DNA of 64,000 nucleotides from assembly GCF_009914755.1 (NCBI RefSeq), contig NC_060927.1. One strand, written 5' to 3'. The notes below the pieces were generated by a model that worked only from the letters and a program-made list of their open reading frames with translations, had not been told where the DNA came from and did not search any database. A program made the translations under genes and the position numbers. The stretch comes from the human T2T-CHM13v2.0 reference genome, Homo sapiens. Numbering within the stretch: the first letter of the stretch is position 1; each line of letters begins with the position of its first letter. Below are positions 48,596-61,024 of the stretch, piece by piece.

Positions 48596-50918
48596 CTTGG
48601 ATTTTTAATGAGCCATAACTACCCTCTCTGCTACCCTTCATTTTAATTTTTTTCTAGGCAAGAATTGATTTAAAGCAGAGTTTATTTCAGAAAATCGTTT
48701 CAGACACATTTCGCCATGGAAACGTTATTACAAATTGTACTTATGTTCTCAGATAATTTAATATTGTTAATAACTCATATCTTAATTAATAATTCCCCTT
48801 GGAATTTTCCTACCTATTATCATTGCTCTATAAAAATCTCAATTTTCCTTTCTGCCCGTTCCCTGTTTATCTCTCATTTTCTTCTATAGCATCTCAGCCC
48901 CATTATAGGTTAAATAGGGTTTTGTGAGTTTGGGACCTCTTTGCAACATTGTTTATTTGGGGAATGGCAAATTGCCATTCTTAGCAAGAAGAGAATGTGG
49001 TGGCACAGATAATGTTTATATTCTAGTTGAATCCACATCAGTTGGCCAATTGACTATTTCTTTGTTTATGGAAAACTGGAACGGCTAGAGGTTGTGATTG
49101 CTACAATGCCTATGACCCACTGTCAGTTACTGAAATGAGATTGCAATTTTTCTGTATATGTTTTTTCTAGACCATTGCTAAGGTACTTCGCGGTCACTAA
49201 GGATAAAAGTAATAATGAACCAGGCACAGGCCAGGTCAGCCATTTATATGTACAAATGTTGATTATTCAAGTTTATAAAACCTGGGGAAGTACACACACA
49301 CACACGCCACGCAGACACACACACACACCTGTTAACCTGTTATGATTAAAAGTTATTTTGCTGACAGTATTGCTTCCTGGGTTATCAGTGTGAAAGAAAA
49401 ACGTTCTATGATGCAAAGTCTCTTCTGCCTTGAGGTTGTGACTCCTTGATGAGAGTTGAACTCTCAAAAACTGAATTGGCAATTTACTGGTATCTGAGTG
49501 GTTAATGTTCAGATTCATGTTGACCCACCTCAAGAGTACATTTGGACTGCCCTCTGATTGGCAGAAGTTCTAAAACTGTGGCTGTTTGCTTCACTGTTCT
49601 TCACCTATTTAGGCTGCCTGATGCTTTTGCTGAAACAAAGCAACTCTCTTGGGCTGCCAGGTACCAAGGTTATCTGTCTCCTCATGTTGATTTTTGGCAG
49701 TCAACAGGCATGCTGCTGTGTCTTTCAGTGTCCTTGTGCAGCAACAAGGGCTTGGTTGCTGCTGGTCAAACATGAAGGTTGTTTTATTAGTGCATCAGGT
49801 ACATGCAGCTACTTTGTTGCTCTATTCACCTAGACCTAATCGGCTAAGGTAAGTTTTTCAGTACACTCTTGATGTAGTTTTTCAATCATCTTTATGTCCT
49901 ATAGAGTTTATGTGCAAAAGAAATCATTTTGCCTTCATATTTTAGCGGTAGCAGCTTATACTAAATTATTAAACTATAGCTTACAGTTTAGAGGCATGCT
50001 TACCAAGTTGTGTGAATAATAGTTTTATGCTTAAGCTTAGCCTGTTGACCAGGTAGTGGGTATGCTAAGAGCAATGCCTGGTCTGGTCTTTCACCTCTAT
50101 GGGAGATAATATTTGGTCTAAGGATTGTAACTTGTTAGTTGGTTATCATATATTGAACCTCTAAAATGTTTAAAGCATTGGCATAGGCATTATAAGGAAG
50201 TTAAAGACTCTATGATTGTGTTAGCCACTCAAAATACATACTCATGAAATGGTCCTAAAACGATCCCATTAAGTACAAGCCTTTAAGTTAAATTTGTAGT
50301 AAATGCTGAGCTTGAAGTCAAGGAGTGATCAGAATGAGGAAAAGTTCATTCATTCAACAAATTCAAGAAAATATTTATTGAGTACCTAACTTGTGCAAAG
50401 CACTGTGCTAGGTTAGATGTTGGGGTTAACAAAATAAATCCATATGTTCACTTGCCTCAGAATCTTAAGAAGAAGACAGTATATAAGAATTACATGAGCG
50501 GCTGCTCTGTCTGTGGAGTAGCCATTCTTTTATTGCTTTACTTTAATGAACTTGCTTTCACTTTGCACTCCAGACTCACCCTGAATTCTTTCTTGTGCAA
50601 GATCCAATAACCCTCTCTTGGGGTCTGGATCAGGGTCCCTTTCCTGTAACATATTTCTGGTGACCACAGAAGTGATTATAGAGCAGAAACCCTGACCCAA
50701 CGGCTACCTTTGGGTCCTGTAACACGTTTCTGGTGGACCATGGAAGGGACAATACTGAAGAGACCCCCAACCCAAAGGAAAATAATCTGTGTGCATCAGT
50801 TGGCTGACTTTGGGTAAGTGGGGTGCATATACCTGGGTAAAGAATGGGATTGGGTTAGAGGCCCAACTTAGAGGAGTTAGAGTCTCTCCTAAAACAGAGT
50901 GGGTTAGAGGCCCCTCTT

Positions 50919-53900
50919 TTTGTTTTTATATTACTTTAAGGTCTGGGATACATGTGCAGAACCTGCAGGTTTGTTACATACCATGTGCCATGGTGGTTTG
51001 CTGCACCTATCAACCTGCCATCTAGGTTTTAAGCCCTGCATACATTAGGTATTTGTCCTAATGCTCTCCCTCCCCTTCCCCCCAACAACCCAACAGGCCC
51101 TGGTGTATGATGTTCCCCTTACTGTGTCCATGTGTTCTCATTGTTCAACTCCCACTTATGAGTGAGAATATGTGGTGTTTGGTTTTCTGTTCCTGTGTTA
51201 GTTTGCTGAGAATGATGCCTTCCAGCTTTATCCATGTTTTTGTATATTGAACCAGCCTTGCATTGCCGGGATGAAGCCAACTTGATCGTAGTGGAGAAGC
51301 TTTTTGATGTGCTGCTGGATTTGGTTTGCCAGTATTTTATTGAGGATTTTCACATGGATGTTCATCAGGGATATTGGCCTGAAATTTTCTTTTTTTGTTG
51401 TGTCTCTGCCAGGTTTTGGTCTCAGGATGATGTTGGCCTCATAAAATGAGTTAGGAAGGAGTCCCTCTATTTCTACTGTTTGGAGTAGTTTCAGAAGGAA
51501 TGGTACCAGCTCCTCTTTGCACCTCTGGTAGAATTTGGCTGTGAGTCTGTCTGGTCTTGGGCTTTTTTGGTTGGTAGGCTATTAATTACTGCCTCAATTT
51601 CAGAACTTGTTATTAGTCTACTCAGGGATTTGACTCCTTCCTGGTTTAGTCTTGGGAGGGTGTATGTGTCCAGGAATTTATCCATTTCTTCTAGATTTTC
51701 CAGTTTATTTGCATAGAGGTGTTTGTAGTATTCTCTGATGGTAGTTTGTATTTCTGTGGGATCAGTGGTGATATCCCCTTTGTCATTTTTTATTGTGTCG
51801 ATTTGATTCTTCTCTTTTCTTCTTTATTAGTCTACCTAGCGGTCTATTTATTTTGTTAATCTTTTCCAAAAACCAACTCCTGGATTCATTGTTTTTTGAA
51901 GGGTTTTTCATGTCTCTATCTTCTTCAGGTCTGCTCTGATCTTAGTTATGTCTTCTGCTAGCTTTTGAATTTGTTTGCTCTTGCTTCTCTAGTTCTTTTA
52001 AGTGTGATTTTAGAGTGTCAATTTCAGACCTTTCCTACTTTTGATGTGGGTATTTAGTGCTATAAATTTCCCTCTAAACACTGCTTTAGCTGTGTCCCAG
52101 GGATTCTGGTACATTGTCTCTTTTTTCTTATTGGTTTGAAAGAACTTCTTTATTTCTGCATTAATTTCGTTATATACCCAGTAGTCATTGAGGAGCAGAT
52201 TGTTCAATTTCCATGTAGTTGTGTGGTTTTGAGTGAGTTTCTTAATCCTGAGTTCTTATTTGATTGCACTGTGGTCTGAGTGACTGTTTGTTATGATTTC
52301 CATTCTTTTGCATTTGCTGAGGAGTGTTTTACTTCCAATTATGTGGTCGATTTTAGAATAAGTGCTATGTGGTGCTGAGAAGAATGTATACTCTGTTGAT
52401 TTGGGGTGGAGAGTTCTGTAGATATCTATTAGGCTTGCTTGATCCAGAGCCGAATTCAAGTCCTGAATATCCTTGTTAATTTTTTGTCTCATTGATCTGT
52501 CTAATATTGACAGTGGGGGCTAAAATCTCCCACTAGTATTGTGTGGGAGTCTAAGTCTCTTCGTAGGTGGCTAAGAACTTGTTATATGAATCTGGGTGCT
52601 CCTGTATTGGGTGCATGTATATTTGGGATAGTTACCTCTTCTTGTTGCATTGATCCCTTTACCATTATCTAATGCCCTTCTTTGTCTTTTTTTGATCTTT
52701 GTTGGTTTAAAGTCTGTTTTAACAGAGACTAGGATTGCAACCCCTGCTTTTTTTTTTCTTTCCATTTGCTTGGTAAATCTTCCTCCATCCCTTTATTTTG
52801 AGCCTATGTGTGTCTTTGCATGTTAGATGGGTCTCCTGAATACAGCACGCTGATGGGTCTTGACTGTTTATTCAATTTGCCAGTCTGTGTCTTTTAACTG
52901 GGGCATTTAGCCCACTTACATTTAAGGTTAATATTGTTATGTGTGAATTTGATCCTGTCATTATGATTCTAGCTGGTTATTTTTCACATTAGTTGATGCA
53001 GTTACTTTATAGTGTCATTGGTCTTTACATTTTGATGTGTTTTTGCTGTGGCTAGTACAGTTTTTTTCTTTCTATATTTAGTGCTTCCCTAAGGAGCTCT
53101 TGTAAGGCAGGCCTGGTGGTGACGAAATCCCTCAGCATTTCCTTGTCTGTAAAGGATTTTATTACTCCATTGCTATGAAGCTTAGTTTGGCTGGATATGA
53201 AATTCTGGGTTGAAAATTCTTTTCTTTAAAAATGTTGAATATTGACCCCCACTCTCTTCTGGCTTGTAGGGTTTCTGCAGAGATATCTGCTGTTAGTCTG
53301 ATGGGCTTCCCTTTGTAGGTAACCCAACCTTTCTCTCTGGCTGCCCTTAACATTTTTTCCTTCTTTTCAACCTTGGAGAATCTGACAATTATGTGTCTTG
53401 GGGTTGCTCTTCTTGAGGAGTATCTTATTGGTGTTCTCTGTATTTCCTGAATTTGAATGTTGGCCTGTCTTGCTAGGTTGGGTAAGTTCTCCTGGATAAT
53501 ATCCTGAAGTGTGTTCTCCAACTTTGTTCCATTCTCCCCATCACTTTCAGGTACACCAATCAGTCTTAGGTTTGGTCTTTTCACATAGTCCCATATTTCT
53601 TGGAGGCTTTGTTTGTTCCTTTTCATTCATTTTTCTCTAATCTTATCTTCATGTCTTATTTCAGTAAGGTGATCTTCAATTTCTGATATCCTTTCTTCCA
53701 CTCGATCGATTTGGCTATTGATACTTGTGTATACTTCATGAAGTTCTTGTGCTGTATTTTTCAGCTTCATCTAGTGATTTAAAATTATTCCTCTCTAAAC
53801 TGGTTATTTTAGTTAGCACTTCTTGTAACCTTTTTATCGAGGTTCTTAGCTTCCTTGCATTGGGTTAGAACATGCTCCTTTAGCTCAGAGGAATTTGTTG

Positions 53901-55392
53901 TTACCCACCTTCTGAAGCCTACTTCTGTCAATTTGTCAGTGTCATTCTCCATCCAGTTTTGTGCTCTTGCTGGAGAGGAGTTATGATCATTGGGAGGAGA
54001 AGAGGCATTCTGGTTTTTGGAATTTTCAGCATTTTTGCACTGGTTTTTCTTCATCTTCATGGATTTATCTGCCTTTGATCTTTGAGGCTGAAGACCTTTG
54101 GATGGGGTTTTTGTGTGGGGGTATTTTTTTGTTGATGTTGACGTTGTTTTCTGTTTGTTAGTTTTTCCTCTAACAGTAAGGTCCCTCTTCTGCAGGTCTG
54201 CTGCAGTTTGCTAGAGGTCCACTCCAGACCCTGTTTGCCTGGGTGTCACCAGTGGCGGCTGCGGAACAGGAAAGATTGCTGCCTGCCCCTTCCTCTGGAA
54301 GCTTTATCCCAGAGGGGCACCAATGTAATGCCAACTGGAGCTCTCCTGTAGGAGGTGTCTGTTAACCTTGTTGGGAGGTCTCTCCCAGTCAGGAGGCACA
54401 GGGATCAGGGACCCACTTGAGGAGGCAGTCTGTGCCTTAGCAGAGCTGGTGCGCTGTGCTGGGAGAATCACCCTTGTCAGGATCAGCTGCTGTCTTGAGA
54501 GCTGGCAGGCAGGAACAATTAAATCCGTTGAAGCTGTGCCCACAGTTGCCCCTTCCCCCAGGTGCTCTGTCCCAGGGAGATAAGAGTTTTATCTGTAAGC
54601 CCCTGACTTGGGCTGCTGTCTTTCCTTCAGAGATGCCCTGCCCAGTGAGGAGGAATCTAGAGAAATAGTCTGGCCACAGCTGCTTTGCCGCACTGTGGGG
54701 AATTCTGCCCAGTCCTAACCTCCCAGCCTCCTTAGCACTCTCAGGAGAAAACCACCTACTAAAACCTCAGTAATGGCAGACTCCCCTCCCCCAACCAAGA
54801 TTGACTGTCCCAGGTCGACTTCAGACTGCTGTGTTGGCAGTGAGAATTTCAAGCCAGTGTTTCTTAGCTTGCTGGGCTCCATGGGAGTGGGACCTGCTCA
54901 GTGAGAACTTGGGTCTCTGGCTTCAGCCGCTTTTTCAGAGGAGTGAATGGTTCTGTCTTGCTAAGGTTCCAGGTGCCACTGGGATATGAAAAAAGCTCCT
55001 ACAGCTAGCTCAGTGTCTGCCCAAACAGCTACCCAGTTTTGTGCTTGAAACCCATGGCCCTGGTGGTGTAGGCAAACGAGGGAATCTCTTGATCTCCGGA
55101 TTGCAGAAACCGTGGGAAAAGCATAGTACCCGGGCCAGGTAACACAGACCCTCATGGCTTCCCTTGGCTGGGAAAGGGAGGCCCCCTGCTCCTTGCACTC
55201 CTTGAGTAAGGCAACGCCCCACCCTGCTTCTGATTGCTCTCTGTGGGTTGCACCCATTGCCTAACCAGTCCTAATGAGATGAACTGGGTACCTCAGTTGG
55301 AAATGTAGAAATCACCTGCCTTAGGCATTGGTCTCCCTGGGAGCTAGAGACCAGAGCAATTCCTATTCAGCCATCTTGGCCCCTCCCCCGCA
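50919..55392 (-). mobile_element. L1PA8-like, both ends present, ~2 kb internal ORF2 deletion, nested in MER41-int
   Basis: 5' end ggccaagatggctgaatagg; ORF1 fragments at 53162-53626 and 53809-54060; endonuclease fragments at 52256-52765; 3'UTR ctaggttttaagccctgcatacattagg; TSD aggcc(c/a)ctctt at 50908-50918 and 55393-55403. Confidence 0.9.
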
Positions 55393-58355
55393 AGGCCACT
55401 CTTAATAAAAGGCAAGGACACTTGTTGGACCTCGGTTAGAGGCCCAGTTTAGGAGGGTTAGAGTCTCTTCTACGATTTAGGGGGTTAGAGGCACCTCTTG
55501 GTAAAGTCCCTTTAAGAACAGGTTTTGCACTATGGGGTGCTAACTGCTATTCTCTTTGGATTAATCTGCCTTGTACTCTTTGCTGATGGCTGTGGGTGAC
55601 AGGCATGGACAGGATTGTGGGACATGAGGAGTTTTTTCCTCCCTAAAAGAGGAAACTTGAGAGGTGATGAGACTGCTGGAAAAAAATCCCTTTACGACAG
55701 CAGCTGCAGCTGCCTGAACTTTTCAGTGTCGCCGCAATGTGTGGGTCTTTCTCCTGGCCTCCCTGATCATTTCACCTTCCCCACCCTGCCAACAGGCAAT
55801 GCTTTTCTTCTCTACTTTTTATTTCCGTTTGTTATCTTTTCTATTACTCAGGGCAACCAACTTGCCCAGAGACCATGTGTTGAAACTCCTAGCCAGAGGT
55901 TGGATTAAAGATGACAGGGCCCTTCTGGGGGCAAATTTAAGCCTTGCCAGTCTGATATTGGGTGCTAAGCAGAATGACTAATGTCTATGTTTTATCACAT
56001 GTATTTTGCTCTGGCCAGAGCAAAAAAAAATTATTCTCCTTTATAATGCGGCTTGGCCCCCAGGGCTATGGTGTCACAAGCTGAATCACTAGGGTTGCTC
56101 AGGGAAAGGGAAACCAGAAGCCTGGCATGCTGGCAAAAGGGTAAGAATTTCTTACCAGTCAGATTTCTGGCTGCTCTCTGTGCAGTTGAATGGATGGTAA
56201 ATAAATAAATAAATAAATAATCAGTGTTTATCTCCTCTGTAAAGTTTTGATTAATGCGAAAAAGAATTCTAAGGCTAGTCTTAAGCTGGTGTATTTTGTG
56301 CTATGAATGTGTTTTTCTGTGTCAAGGGGTACTTTAGGTGCAAACACTGGCTTAGAACACTTGTAAGCCCACTTTTCAAGACCACCCAGCAAGCTGGTCC
56401 ATAACAAACTTGGCTGCAGGTCCCTGAAACAAACGAAAAACTGAATGAAGTCTCCACGTTGTTTTATGTCCTTGGGAGCTTGGCCTTTTAACCAGGTGGT
56501 GGTACTTTCTTTTGGTCTCTGTCTTCAGGAAACAGGAATTTTAGGGTTCATGTCAGAGTTAGCTCTAAAAATCCTATCACATAGTTAAAAGCCTCTGCAA
56601 GCTCAGGATTCACTACTCTAGATTCCTCGTGGGAAAGGAACTGGAGACTGCCCTGTGCTGTAGTTATGTCTCCTGTTAGCTTTTGAATTTGTTTGCTACT
56701 TCTGCCCAGTAGCTGCTAGTACTAGCTGCCTAGTAGCTAATGTTTTGCACTTTCACAGTGGCGGTCTGAGTTCAATTCCCCACCTAGGAAGTAAGTCATT
56801 TCTGGTTTAATATCTGTGTGACCTTGTCTATTCTCTTCTCCATGGACTGCCTTAATTTTTTGTTTCTCTAAGCACCTAGGAGGTTACCTTTGGCAAAGTT
56901 CAGAAACTAGAAATATTGGCCACTTGGCATGGCCGAAGTCGGGTAATAAGAGATCTGGAAGGATTTCTTTTTTAAAGAGCACCATGGTTAAAAATCAGCT
57001 TAATTAAAAGTGGATAAACAAGCTATACATATATTTTAAAGGCCGTTATGTTTTTGTCTCCTTGGAACTTTTTTTTTCTGGAAAAAGGTGTTTCTTCTCT
57101 GTCAATTGAATTATTTTTTCTCCAATTTTTTTTTTTTTTTGTCTTGCCACTCTTCAAGCACACATGAGAGACCCTAAGATAACTTCGGGTAGCCTGGGAC
57201 TCCTTGGGAGAAACAGAGGAGGCGCCACAGACCCCGTTTTGGGGAAAAAAACCCTCTGTTTCCCTCATGAAACCCCAGGAATTAAAAGCAAATAGATCCC
57301 TCTAAAACTCAAAGGCACTGTTCTGTTTTGCATTGTGTTATCTAACGGTTTTGAGTTTTGGGGTATCAGAAATTACTTTGCATTATGAGAGAGCTTTCGT
57401 GTGTAAGAACTAGGTAGGAAATATACTTTAAGGGATGGCTAATAGTAGTTATGGAGGGATACTTGACTCTTTGTACACTCAGCTCAGACAAGCATGCTCT
57501 TGGCCACTTGGGAGATAAGGAAACATCCCCACCCCCCACTGGGAGATGAGACACCCTTGAGGGATAGGCTGATGACAAAATGGGCTGATTGGCTTTGGGT
57601 TGCCTTGCAAGAAATGCAGAGTAGAAGCACTGCGCTATCTTCTTCCATAGTATTTCCCTCCTTTTGGGGATCCAGGAACCAGTATAAAATGACACCCTTA
57701 ATTTTGGGGATCTGTCTGCCTTCAGCTGCTTATTTGCTGCTTATTTGGCCGTAAGAACGCATGCTTTTCTGGCCCTGTTCCTCCAAGGGCTCCATCCTGA
57801 AGCCAGTAATTCAATTAAGAAACTGGCAAACGAAAAATCTTACAAGTGCTGAATCTGTCTGTCTGTGTATTTATATGTGTTATATGTTTACATATAAAAG
57901 AGCTCTAATTAATTGGCTTAGAAAAATAAGCACTTAAATCAAATATTTTGTCAGAAAAATAGAAACTTTAATGCCTTTTTGTTCATGTAACTTTAGTAAT
58001 CTTTTGGAAATAGTTTTAAAGATTATTAGTAAAATTATCTTGAAAATGTAGACATTTGGTCTAAATTAACGTCAGATATCAGATTTGCTAAATGCTTTAA
58101 GGTTGAACTGTTTATTTGACTTTTGAAAACTGTTTAATTTACCTACCTTAAAGCCATTAGATTCTAGATAGGGCCTGGGAACATGTGGAGTTAGCCTGAG
58201 AGTTAGCAGTCAGCTCCTATCTGCACTTCTGCCTGGTGTGTCCTAGGCTAGACTCCCCACCTAGTACACAATTAAAATAGCTTATTAACCAGGGTTTTCA
58301 CCAAAAATGAAAGTCACTAAAAGTTAACATTGTAACATGTAATTAAGACTACTGA

Positions 58356-58686
<331 letters not shown>

Positions 58687-61024
58687 TACTGAAGAAACAG
58701 TTTTACATGCAAGATGTATAAGAAAAGTGAAATGAGTTTTTGGTAAAAAAAGATTACAAGAAGGCATGGGAATGTGGAATTTCTTCAGCCTAGATTAAAG
58801 TGTTAAAGGATTGTTTTAAGTAAGAAAAAAAATCTAAAGGTTTAAACAAGTTGTGAAAGATTTGTAAAAATTAATTCTAAGAGATTCTATGTGTGAACAT
58901 ATTGGCTATTATTCAGTTTTTCTGTAAATTAAACACTGAAATAGAAGCACAACAGGTTTTTCTTAAAGCACTGATCTGCTCTTTCACAAAAAAATGTAAA
59001 GGGTTATAAAAGGTTTATAAGAATCTTATGTTATGGTTAAACATTAAAATTGGGTAAATATATCTATAAGGTTTTATTAAAAATTGAGTTTAATGTTAAT
59101 AGTACATTATTATAAAGGAGAAATTTGGCTCATTTGGTATAAAAATCATACAGAAAGCATTATCGAATGTGAAGTAGTGTTTTGCTTTCTTTGGACTATA
59201 TTTGCATAAATGTGTTATGTTCCAAAGTTATGGGAAACTTGGCTTTGGATTGCCTTGCAAGAAATGCAGAGTAGAAGCACTGCACTGTCTTCTCCCATAG
59301 TATTTCCCTCCTTTTGGGGATCCAGGAACCAGTATAAAATGGCACCCTTAATTTTGGGGATCTGTCTGCCTTCAGCTTTACCATGATTTGTCTTTAGTAA
59401 AAATGGGAAACTGGAGAGAGAAATATTATGTTTCAAGAATTATAGCACACTGGTTATTGAATTCTAGTATCAGTTGTTTTTAAGTTTGTTTCTGCAATTT
59501 AGGCTAACCCTGCTTATTCCTGTAAACCAACCAGTGATTTTTGACTGTTCCTCAGAAGAAACAAGAGGGATGGGTAATGTAAAAATCTGGATCGGTATTC
59601 TAATTCCGGGCACATTACAATCAGCTAACAACCCCATATCAGCTTAGTTCCAACAGTTGCCCAGTTCATGAAAAGCCTTCTAATTTAGTTTACTTGGAAT
59701 AACTTCACTTATTTTGCTTTAATCTTGTGGAATATATTGCTGTTATACTGTTTGTGCAGGAATACAGGACAAGCTTACTGAGTGCTTTCTTAAATTATAC
59801 ACTTATTAATCTTCCAGATATCACCTTCTGTCGCAACTCAAGAGTTTATAAATGGACCTTACCATACTGATGCTTTCCAACTGAGCTCCTCTCTACCCTG
59901 AATGCAAGAGACCCTCATAGTTAGGAAGAAATATTATTACCCCTATTCAGCCTGAAGAAGTTACAGAAGACAGATGTTTGTCCCTCTGCAAACCTTAGGA
60001 TTAAGGATTCTTTTATAAAAGGGAGGGGGGAAATGTCAGAGGCCTGTGAGCCAGAGCAACTTTATCTTAAACAGGAGCTGGGTAAAATGAGGGTGAAACC
60101 TACTGGGCTGCATTCCCAGATGGTTAAGGCATTCTAAGTCACAGGATAAGTTAGGAGGTCAGCATAAAATACGGGTCATAAAGACCTTGCTGATAAAACA
60201 GGTTGCAGTAAAGGAGCCAGCCAAAACCAAACAAAACCAAAATGGCCACGAGAGTGACTTCTGGTCGTCCTCACTGCTGCTCTCCCACTAGCACCATAAC
60301 AGTTTACAAATGCCATGGCAACGTCAGGAAGTTACCCTATATGGTCTAAAAAGGGGAGGCATGAATAATCCACCCCTTGTTTAGCATATCATCAAGAAAT
60401 AACCATAAAAATGGGCATCCAGCAGCCCTTGGGGCTGCTCTATAGAGTAGCCATTCTTTATTCCTTTACTTTCTTAATAAACTTGCTTTCATTTTGAAAA
60501 AAAAAAAAAAAAAAAAGAGCAAACTGCTGTAAGAGTAAAAAGAAAGCTCCAAAAAGGGATGAAACTTTCAGAAATATGAAGAGAATCCATAAAAACCTGT
60601 GTTGACAGTTCTAGACACAACTGCTACTTTCAATGTCTAGTTTCCAGTTTCTTTGAGTAAAAATGATTCATCATGCCAAACTTCATGCCAAGCCTTCTAT
60701 CAACAAACTGACCCTTTAGAATTCAGTAAAGTAAGAAGGCCAAACTTTGCAAACTTTATGCAACCTTTCAGGACACTGATTAAATAAAAGCATGAAGAAG
60801 GGCTTTGAAATTCAGTTTGTAAAGGCTATTTGACCAAGGAGGGCAATATATTGAGCAAATATTTGAATATGTGGTAAAGTAGCACAGGCACAGTCAAGTG
60901 AGACTGGTGGTAAAACAGAAACACATTGCTAACAGAAGAAGATTCTTCATAACTTCTTGCAGTATCCAAACTCATGTTACTGACGTGTCCCACTGTCATG
61001 TCCAGCTTCAGGCAATATTGTCCT

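What the first reader, a model, noticed from the sequence alone, without database searches (positions are those of the whole stretch)
50485..60520. MER41A endogenous retrovirus fixed as an L1-type processed retrocopy (R-U5-int-U3-R-polyA)
Seen: the 5' LTR has no U3 and starts abruptly at ggctgctctg (50500). The 3' LTR has a complete U3 after an intact PPT, but stops 15 nt after AATAAA (60476-60481) and continues as A20 instead of U5. This is the layout of a retroviral genomic RNA, not an integrase-made provirus. Established: HERV-W processed pseudogenes have this form and are attributed to L1 target-primed reverse transcription. Inference: a non-autonomous MER41 RNA was mobilised by L1; I do not recall this being described for MER41. 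Only GAGC is visibly duplicated (50496-50499, 60517-60520). However, left-flank AAGAATTACATGAGC follows an endonuclease-like AT/AAGA site and would collapse to the observed AAGAGC by a 9-nt deletion between GA microhomologies.
Basis: partly seen in the sequence, partly recalled or inferred. Interest (0 to 1): 0.8.

Follow-up and report, generated by a model that had tools for sequence, protein, structure and literature searches.

The report
LINE-1-made retrocopy of a MER41 retrovirus RNA
This 10-kb stretch is a DNA copy of a MER41 endogenous-retrovirus RNA that LINE-1 machinery, not the virus's own integrase, pasted into the genome, and it is one of many such copies in a family for which we found no published description of this route.

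Summary
The element starts at 50500, 27-28 nt downstream of where the LTR's TATA-like box would lie, so it starts at R with no U3. It ends at 60496, 15 nt after AATAAA, followed by A20, so there is no U5. Measured against a natural full LTR, the 5' end covers positions 400-560 and the 3' LTR covers 1-467.

It is not a one-off:
- 8 of 39 other sampled MER41-interior 5' ends start at the same G(G)CTGCTCTG.
- 9 of 39 sampled 3' ends stop at the same poly(A) site with an A-rich tail.
- Three copies with both ends in hand have possible 8-17 nt target-site duplications, of which only the 16-nt one beats all mismatched controls. Five full-LTR proviruses have 4-bp ones.

105 exact R-poly(A) junctions exist genome-wide. 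Of 31 sampled, 21 are about 66-nt "R-only" retrocopies. Of those 21, 11 have 11-18 nt duplications that beat every mismatched control, and these duplications begin with A.

The window's own copy has only GAGC duplicated, which is chance level.

Reviews call HERV-W the only HERV group mobilised by LINE-1, and six literature searches found no MER41 case. This is a new member of a known kind, of moderate-to-high interest.

The parts
50496..50499 (+). GAGC, the 5' copy of the only visible flank duplication
   Evidence: Read. The score of 4 is at chance level against 156 mismatched flank pairs.
50500..50565 (+). 5' R (66 nt). It begins at the transcription start. Its poly(A) signal reads AATGAA here.
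   Evidence: It equals ruler positions 400-466. Eight other copies start within 1-3 nt of the same point.
50566..50651 (+). U5, ending in ..CCTGTAACA
   Evidence: It is contiguous with R in full LTR copies up to ruler position 554.
50658..50675 (+). Primer-binding-site-like TGGTGACCAC.... A second, diverged copy of the U5-end/PBS segment lies 74 nt downstream (50716-50764).
   Evidence: (repeat D4). The same TGGTGACCAC follows the LTR in L068. The tRNA identity was not tested.
50652..50918 (+). Leader and first part of the MER41-type interior
   Evidence: Collinear with other copies, for example L012:1355-1776. The own-genome search gave 341 first-look candidates, of which 40 were scored.
50919..55392 (-). 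Later antisense LINE-1 insertion, not part of the retrocopy. Its 5' end is complete and it is internally shortened. An approximately 11-nt duplication (AGGCCnCTCTT) flanks it.
   Evidence: Pfam hits on the minus strand: L1 ORF1 (Transposase_22, E 1.5e-59) at 53165-53626, RVT_1 at 51231-51578, and a weak endonuclease match at 52259-52519. Other copies join window position 50918 directly to 55393. Sequence read. The L1 5'-end identification is from recall.
55393..60016 (+). Rest of the MER41-type interior. No retroviral protein domain is recognisable.
   Evidence: Collinear with L012, L018, L032, L044 and L061. Pfam gave 0 families in three forward frames read through stops as X and 0 retroviral families in ORFs of at least 60 aa.
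58365..58686 (-). Later antisense Alu insertion with a 15-nt duplication, TACTGAAGAAACAGT (58350-58364 and 58687-58701)
   Evidence: Read. Many Alu-bearing loci match 58400-58690. The Alu identification is from recall.
60017..60033 (+). Polypurine tract
   Evidence: Read. It lies immediately before the TG that opens the 3' LTR.
60034..60432 (+). Complete U3 of the 3' LTR, with the TATA-like ATAAAAA at 60405-60411
   Evidence: Ruler positions 1-399 at 90.8% identity. 91% identity to many genomic LTR copies. The MER41B-like motif sits at 60369-60394.
60433..60496 (+). 3' R, with AATAAA at 60476-60481. It ends at the poly(A) site.
   Evidence: Nine other sampled 3' ends stop at ruler positions 466-469 and continue into an A-rich tail.
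60497..60516 (+). Poly(A) tail, A20
   Evidence: Read.
60517..60520 (+). GAGC, the 3' copy of the only visible flank duplication
   Evidence: Chance level.

Best explanation
An RNA transcribed from a MER41-type provirus was reverse-transcribed into the chromosome by LINE-1 machinery through target-primed reverse transcription. The RNA started at the LTR transcription start and was polyadenylated at the R poly(A) site of the 3' LTR. The result is R-U5-PBS-interior-PPT-U3-R-A20. The copy lacks a promoter at its 5' end but carries a complete U3-R unit at its 3' end. An antisense L1 and an antisense Alu inserted into it later.

Shown here:
- the RNA-shaped ends of this copy;
- their recurrence at the same LTR positions in other copies;
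- long duplications that begin with A in related copies, against 4-bp duplications in full-LTR proviruses.

Inferred: that LINE-1 ORF2p made this particular copy. Its own target-site duplication is not demonstrable. The copy belongs to a wider MER41 retrocopy population that includes about 66-nt R-only copies.
For: 1. Ends of this copy. The 5' end lies 27-28 nt after the position of the TATA-like box. The 3' end lies 15 nt after AATAAA and is followed by A20.

2. Recurrence at 5' ends. Of 39 other sampled leader-bearing loci, 8 start at G(G)CTGCTCTG with unrelated upstream DNA, 22 keep U3, 3 have another U3 type, and 6 are undetermined.

3. Recurrence at 3' ends. Of 39 other sampled 3' ends, 9 stop at ruler positions 466-469 with an A-rich tail, 26 keep U5, and 4 are undetermined.

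4. Copies with both ends in hand. L012/L044 has a perfect 16-nt duplication, ATAAAACTGAATGCCT. L032/L069 has 14 of 17 nt. L018/L061 has about 8-10 nt.

5. Contrast with proviruses. Five full-LTR proviruses have 4-bp duplications and no tail: AGGG, GCTA, GTTT, ATTC, and CCGT/CTGT.

6. Genome-wide junction counts. The exact R-poly(A) junction occurs 82 + 23 times, with 0 in reversed-pattern controls. The exact R-U5 junction occurs 119 times.

7. R-only copies. Of 31 sampled from the 82, 21 are R-only and start at the transcription start. Among these 21, 12 have a duplication score above the 95th percentile, and 11 score above the maximum, of 420 mismatched controls. The duplications are 11-18 nt and begin AAA, AAG or AAT. 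They are preceded by T in 8 of the 12 best cases.

8. Multiple sources. Retrocopies are scattered over a tree of the leader region (8 label changes for 8 rows). The tree is weakly resolved.
Against: - The window's own copy shows only a 4-nt duplication (GAGC), which is indistinguishable from chance.
- The junction CAT|GAGC is not an L1-endonuclease-like site.
- No orthologous empty site could be inspected. A proxy using the old repeat in the flank failed.
- Both samples of ends are the 40 best matches to this window's own sequence, so the one-quarter fraction may be biased.
- The MER41 name rests on one published motif.
- Nine of the 21 R-only copies show no duplication above the control level.
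Confidence: 0.9

Rival explanations
1. The same RNA-derived retrocopy, but inserted without LINE-1 endonuclease, at a pre-existing DNA break or with loss of target DNA. This would explain why there is no real target-site duplication. It is nested within the best explanation: it differs only in how the target was opened.
For: Only GAGC is duplicated, at chance level. The site CAT|GAGC does not resemble the T|AAA starts seen in the 12 best R-only duplications.
Against: The 5' flank reads ...TATAT|AAGAATTACATGAGC. Most related copies with readable flanks are endonuclease-type.
Confidence: 0.15
2. An ordinary integrase-made provirus that later lost U3 at its 5' end and U5 at its 3' end through two independent deletions, with an A-run arising by chance or by slippage.
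For: The element is old and has been hit by later insertions. It has no clear long duplication.
Against: Both breakpoints fall on the transcription start and the poly(A) site. A20 sits exactly at the cleavage position. Eight and nine other sampled copies share the same start and end respectively. No 4-bp duplication of the provirus kind can be placed, because the LTR edges are absent.
Confidence: 0.03
3. A copy made by a reverse transcriptase other than LINE-1's, such as a retroviral one acting on polyadenylated RNA, and joined to the chromosome by repair.
For: Nothing specific. It would also give an RNA-shaped copy without a regular duplication.
Against: Related copies carry the 11-18 nt duplications beginning with A, preceded by T, that are typical of LINE-1 endonuclease. 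Retroviral reverse transcription regenerates full LTRs, as seen in the 4-bp-duplication copies.
Confidence: 0.03

Closest known systems
HERV-W (HERV17/LTR17) processed pseudogenes
   Same: Same layout: the 5' LTR is reduced to R-U5, the 3' LTR to U3-R, and a poly(A) tail follows. In related MER41 copies there are variable long duplications at A-rich sites. These are the criteria read in passages of PMC5016936. HERV-W and MER41 are placed in the same HERVW9 supergroup (passages of PMC4724089 and PMC5753468).
   Different: The family is different: the LTR is about 554 nt with U5 of about 86 nt, against 780 nt for LTR17 (PMC5016936). The interior has no recognisable retroviral domain. There is an abundant R-only class. 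For this particular copy the duplication and insertion motif are not demonstrable.
HERV-K(HML-2) rec mRNA retrocopies ERVK-30 and ERVK-31
   Same: [quoted passage not shown]
   Different: They are two loci made from a spliced subgenomic mRNA of a class II ERV. Here the RNA is of the unspliced genomic type, from a class I family, and there are many loci.
Ordinary mRNA processed pseudogenes and SINE-R/SVA-type LTR-derived retroposons (recalled, not checked by any search)
   Same: Polyadenylated RNA polymerase II transcripts are copied in trans by LINE-1. SINE-R/SVA also carry an LTR-derived 3' end that supplies the poly(A) signal.
   Different: The template here is a whole retroviral RNA, or for the R-only class the 66-nt R alone, running from the LTR's own start site to its own poly(A) site.
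Integrase-made MER41 proviruses
   Same: They have the same LTR and interior sequences. The window's leader groups with the provirus at L010 (support 94/87).
   Different: Proviruses have complete U3-R-U5 on both sides, 4-bp duplications and no tail. The window's copy has none of these.

Membership tests
LINE-1-made processed pseudogene of an ERV RNA (criteria as given for HERV-W in PMC5016936) | The 5' LTR is reduced to R-U5 and starts at the transcription start | tested here: met
   The element starts at 50500, which is ruler position 400. No U3 lies within 1.3 kb upstream. The TATA-like box lies 27-28 nt before the equivalent point in the 3' LTR.
LINE-1-made processed pseudogene of an ERV RNA (criteria as given for HERV-W in PMC5016936) | The 3' LTR is reduced to U3-R and ends at the poly(A) site | tested here: met
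   Ruler positions 1-467 are present. The end is at 60496, 15 nt after AATAAA. No U5 follows within 1.3 kb.
LINE-1-made processed pseudogene of an ERV RNA (criteria as given for HERV-W in PMC5016936) | A poly(A) tail directly after R | tested here: met
   A20 at 60497-60516.
LINE-1-made processed pseudogene of an ERV RNA (criteria as given for HERV-W in PMC5016936) | A variable-length (5-15 bp) target-site duplication | tested here: inconclusive
   In the window only GAGC (4 nt) is duplicated, and 65% of 156 mismatched controls score as high. In related copies the feature is met: 16, about 17 and about 9 nt in three full copies, and 11 of 21 R-only copies score above every one of 420 controls.
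LINE-1-made processed pseudogene of an ERV RNA (criteria as given for HERV-W in PMC5016936) | A TT/AAAA-type insertion motif | tested here: inconclusive
   In the window, CAT|GAGC does not fit. TATAT|AAGAAT, 15 nt upstream, would fit only if the 3' copy of the duplication was later lost. In the R-only class the 12 best duplications start AAA, AAG or AAT, and 8 of them are preceded by T.
LINE-1-made processed pseudogene of an ERV RNA (criteria as given for HERV-W in PMC5016936) | An empty orthologous site in species that diverged earlier | not testable with these tools
   No primate genomes are held. A proxy using the old repeat in the flank gave nothing usable.
MER41 family (LTR plus MER41-type interior) | The LTR is homologous to MER41 LTRs | tested here: met
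   Positions 60369-60394 match, at 25 of 26, the motif that PMC2897888 says resembles MER41B. The LTR has 3266 first-look candidates in the own genome, of which 40 were scored at 89-92% identity. No Dfam or Repbase alignment was possible.
MER41 family (LTR plus MER41-type interior) | Subfamily MER41A specifically | not testable with these tools
   No consensus library is held, and none was built.
Integrase-made provirus | Two complete LTRs (U3-R-U5) flanked by a 4-bp duplication | tested here: not met
   U3 is missing at the 5' end and U5 at the 3' end. Five provirus-type MER41 copies do show 4-bp duplications.

The most novel reading that the evidence does not exclude
HERV-W is not the only human ERV group that LINE-1 amplified. 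MER41, its relative in the HERVW9 supergroup, has an apparently undescribed retrocopy population. That population includes full-length and shortened RNA-shaped copies: at least 16 loci seen here have the interior plus at least one RNA-type end. It also includes a SINE-like class of about 66-nt R-only copies, estimated at 50 or more. The R-only copies derive from transcripts that start and are polyadenylated within a single LTR, so each solo LTR would act as a self-contained mini-gene feeding LINE-1.
Probability: 0.55. Interest if true: 0.7.

Novelty: new member of a known kind. Interest (0 to 1): 0.6.

Why it matters
Reviews of human ERVs state that HERV-W alone was mobilised by LINE-1 (PMC5537654, abstract and introduction passages). 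They treat this as a peculiarity still needing explanation (PMC6995185, discussion passages).

A second affected group from the same supergroup makes the question testable by comparison. One can ask what the two share, for example a short R that carries the poly(A) signal, germ-line expression, or timing relative to the primate LINE-1 burst.

There are practical consequences too:
- Some 'MER41 proviruses' and many short 'MER41 LTR fragments' in repeat annotation would be retrocopies lacking a 5' promoter, or R-only tags. This affects LTR-pair dating, copy counts, and studies that treat MER41 LTRs as interferon-responsive enhancers.
- Copies like this one carry a complete U3-R only at their 3' end.
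- The R-only class records that the LTR's own poly(A) site was used directly after its own start site.

Tried and rejected
The loci were not cut out for the same reason. I continued with small fetches only. As a result, four loci whose 5' ends start at the transcription start (L017, L022, L030, L035) and seven loci with poly(A)-type 3' ends remain unpaired.

2. Junction patterns did not locate the missing 3' ends of those four loci.

3. I tried to use the old interspersed repeat around the insertion as a stand-in for the empty site. BLAST of both flanks against all held DNA gave one irrelevant hit. An own-genome search of the 5' flank matched only an inner part of that repeat, not the junction. 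The attempt was abandoned.

It was replaced by single ORFs and by reading stops as X.

6. Pavlicek et al. 2002 could not be read. What it says about other HERV families is therefore unknown to me, except as cited by others.

7. A single master source for the retrocopies is rejected as unsupported: they do not cluster on the leader tree. The tree is poorly resolved, with 2 of 27 inner branches well supported.

8. HERV-W itself as the identity of this element is rejected. The LTR is about 554 nt with an 86-nt U5, not 780 nt (against passages of PMC5016936).
Full report
**The observation**

- The element begins at 50500 with GGCTGCTCTG.
- The same words occur in the 3' LTR at 60433, 27-28 nt after a TATA-like ATAAAAA (60405-60411).
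- The 3' LTR opens with TG at 60034, directly after a polypurine tract (60017-60033).
- It carries AATAAA at 60476-60481 and stops at 60496. A20 follows (60497-60516).
- The shared R is 64-66 nt.
- Only GAGC is repeated in the flanks (50496-50499 and 60517-60520).

**A ruler for the LTR**

The window's genome is searchable. The 3' LTR finds many copies at 89-92% identity: 3266 first-look candidates, of which 40 were scored. One natural full copy, L007:1501-2060, served as a ruler.
- The window's 5' piece covers ruler positions 400-560 (R-U5, ending ..CCTGTAACA at 50651).
- The 3' LTR covers ruler positions 1-467 (U3-R).
- Neither U3 upstream nor U5 downstream is present within about 1.3 kb (L009, L039).

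**The family name**

No Dfam or Repbase library is held. The only independent tie to MER41 is a 26-nt motif that Schmid and Bucher report as resembling MER41B (PMC2897888, Table 1 and a figure legend, read as passages). It matches 60369-60394 at 25 of 26 positions, with 0 matches in 100 shuffles. The subfamily letter is untested. The element is not HERV-W, whose LTR is 780 nt with R at positions 256-326 (passages of PMC5016936).

**Interior**

Other copies join window position 50918 directly to 55393. So 50919-55392 is a later insertion.
- It is an antisense LINE-1. Pfam finds ORF1 domains at 53165-53626 (E 1.5e-59), the start of the reverse transcriptase at 51231-51578, and a weak endonuclease match.
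- It is flanked by an approximately 11-nt duplication.
- An antisense Alu at 58365-58686 has a 15-nt duplication.

The remaining roughly 4.6 kb of interior is collinear with other copies near both ends. It has no Pfam retroviral domain, either in 41 ORFs of at least 60 aa or in the three forward frames read through stops as X. This is consistent with a non-coding, helper-dependent element but does not prove it.

**Recurrence at 5' ends**

The 253-nt leader (50653-50905) was searched in the genome, and the 40 best places were examined. The first 29 other loci came with flanks. The last 10 were covered by 211-nt fetches. Among these 39 other loci:
- 8 begin within 1-3 nt of the same G(G)CTGCTCTG, with unrelated DNA upstream (L012, L017, L018, L022, L030, L032, L035, L083).
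- 22 keep U3.
- 3 (L015, L019, L023) share a different upstream sequence, meaning another U3 type.
- 6 could not be decided. L013 and L089 had no LTR hit, L016 and L085 were ambiguous, and L084 and L087 are cut by Alu insertions.

**Recurrence at 3' ends**

The 274 nt before the 3' LTR (59760-60033) were treated in the same way. Among 39 other loci:
- 9 stop at ruler positions 466-469 and continue as an A-rich tail (L044, L050, L051, L055, L061, L066, L091, L093, L097).
- 26 keep U5.
- 4 are undecided (L063, L094, L098, L100).

Both samples are the best matches to this window's own sequence. The fraction of about one quarter may therefore be biased. Counting the window, 16 distinct loci carry the interior with at least one RNA-type end.

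**Target-site duplications**

Three copies have both ends in hand:
- L012/L044 on contig 14 has a perfect 16-nt duplication.
- L032/L069 on contig 2 has 14 of 17 nt.
- L018/L061 on contig 23, a short 2.6-kb form, has about 8-10 nt.

By contrast, five full-LTR proviruses show 4-bp duplications and no tail (AGGG, GCTA, GTTT, ATTC, CCGT/CTGT). This agrees with the 4-bp value listed for group I ERVs in PMC11905727 (Table 1, read as a passage).

The window's own score is 4. Of 156 mismatched flank pairs, 65% do as well. This copy therefore has no demonstrable duplication.

It could not be tested here.

**The R-only class**

- The exact junction of the R end with five A's occurs 82 times in the genome, against 0 for the reversed pattern.
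- Junctions two or three bases further on add 23, including the window's.
- The exact R-to-U5 junction occurs 119 times.

I sampled 31 of the 82. The first 11 were about every eighth row, with two substitutions. The next 20 were every fourth row. The results:
- 21 are R alone. They start at the transcription start (one starts 12 nt earlier) and end at the poly(A) site.
- 8 reach into U3.
- 1 is truncated inside R.
- 1 is cut by an Alu.

Among the 21 R-only copies, 12 have a duplication score above the 95th percentile, and 11 score above the maximum, of 420 mismatched controls. Their duplications are 11-18 nt and begin AAA, AAG or AAT. T precedes the duplication in 8 of the 12 best cases. The other 9 show nothing above the control level.

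This is the LINE-1 endonuclease signature as described for HERV-W pseudogenes (passages of PMC5016936).

The simplest source of the R-only copies is a transcript that starts and is polyadenylated within one LTR, whether a solo LTR or a 5' LTR. A jump of the nascent cDNA from the 3' R to the 5' R of a full-length RNA would give the same product. The data do not exclude that.

**One source or several**

On a tree of a 200-nt leader segment from 30 loci, the 8 retrocopies need 8 label changes and are no more clustered than shuffled labels. Only 2 of 27 inner branches are well supported. The window's copy pairs with the provirus at L010 (support 94/87). Several source lineages are therefore likely, but this is not firmly shown.

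**Mechanism**

Taken together, the window's element is best read as a LINE-1-made copy of a genomic-type MER41 RNA (confidence 0.9).

How its target was opened remains open. There are two readings:
- a normal endonuclease site whose 3' duplication decayed;
- an endonuclease-independent or target-deleting event (about 0.15, nested within the main reading).

Two deletions in a provirus, or another reverse transcriptase, are each given about 0.03.

**Comparison with what is known**

- HERV-W processed pseudogenes are the model. One count gives 135 of 213 loci (passage of PMC5537654).
- Two HML-2 rec mRNA retrocopies are also described (PMC4351823, abstract and passages).
- Vargiu et al. place MER41 with HERV-W and HERV9 in one supergroup. 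[quoted passage not shown]

Six full-text searches found no description of MER41 retrocopies:
- MER41 with 'processed pseudogene';
- MER41 with HERV-W;
- R-U5/U3-R terms;
- L1-mediated, poly-A tail and target-site-duplication terms;
- MER41-int or MER41I, 9 papers;
- LINE-mediated, HERV9 and HERV-H terms.

Four gaps qualify this negative result. Pavlicek et al. 2002 is not held. No supplements were opened. Subscription journals are mostly absent from the library. Database notes in Dfam and Repbase could not be seen.

**Verdict**

The kind of event is known. The family is new for it as far as I could search, and the R-only class is an unexpected extension. Interest is 0.6.

Noticed in passing
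Genome-wide; examples L071, L074, L103, L107, L109, L113 (fetched 210-280 nt stretches): About 66-nt 'R-only' retrocopies of the MER41 LTR. They run from the transcription start to the poly(A) site, carry an A tail, and have 11-18 nt duplications. They make up 21 of 31 sampled from 82 exact junction sites.
   Followed up: partly
window 50919-55392 (-): An antisense LINE-1 inserted into the retrocopy's leader. It has a complete 5' end and an ORF1 recognised by Pfam, but it is only about 4.5 kb long, so it is internally shortened. An approximately 11-nt duplication (AGGCCnCTCTT) flanks it.
   Followed up: partly
window 58365-58686 (-): An antisense Alu with a clean 15-nt duplication, TACTGAAGAAACAGT.
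   Followed up: yes
window 57580-57727 and 59230-59377: A 148-nt direct repeat at 94% identity. The second copy sits where most other copies have about 1 kb of interior, for example L044:99-1110. This copy therefore carries an internal deletion-plus-duplication.
   Followed up: partly
window 50642-50690 and 50716-50764: The U5-end/PBS segment is present twice, 74 nt apart (repeat D4). About a quarter of the leader matches in other copies start only at query position 60-67, so they lack one of the two units.
   Followed up: no
L015, L019, L023 (contigs 10, 12, 23): Three copies have the same R-U5 and leader, but upstream of R they share a different sequence with each other. This is probably a second U3 type on the same interior.
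   Followed up: no
L018/L061, contig 23 at 54.40 Mb: A 2.6-kb RNA-shaped copy that lacks the equivalents of window 56183-57853 and 57989-59425. It may derive from a spliced or deleted RNA.
   Followed up: no
contig 1, 120.3-148.7 Mb (one search list): Six R-poly(A) junction hits lie in the pericentromeric part of contig 1. They look like one insertion multiplied by segmental duplication. They are absent from the stricter pattern.
   Followed up: no
window 50330-50499 and 60517-60600: By recall, the flanks look like one old MIR-type repeat split by the insertion. If so, the repeat's own sequence could serve as a proxy for the empty site. Two attempts found no usable copy.
   Followed up: partly
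window 50545-50550: The poly(A) signal in the 5' R reads AATGAA, while the 3' R keeps AATAAA.
   Followed up: no
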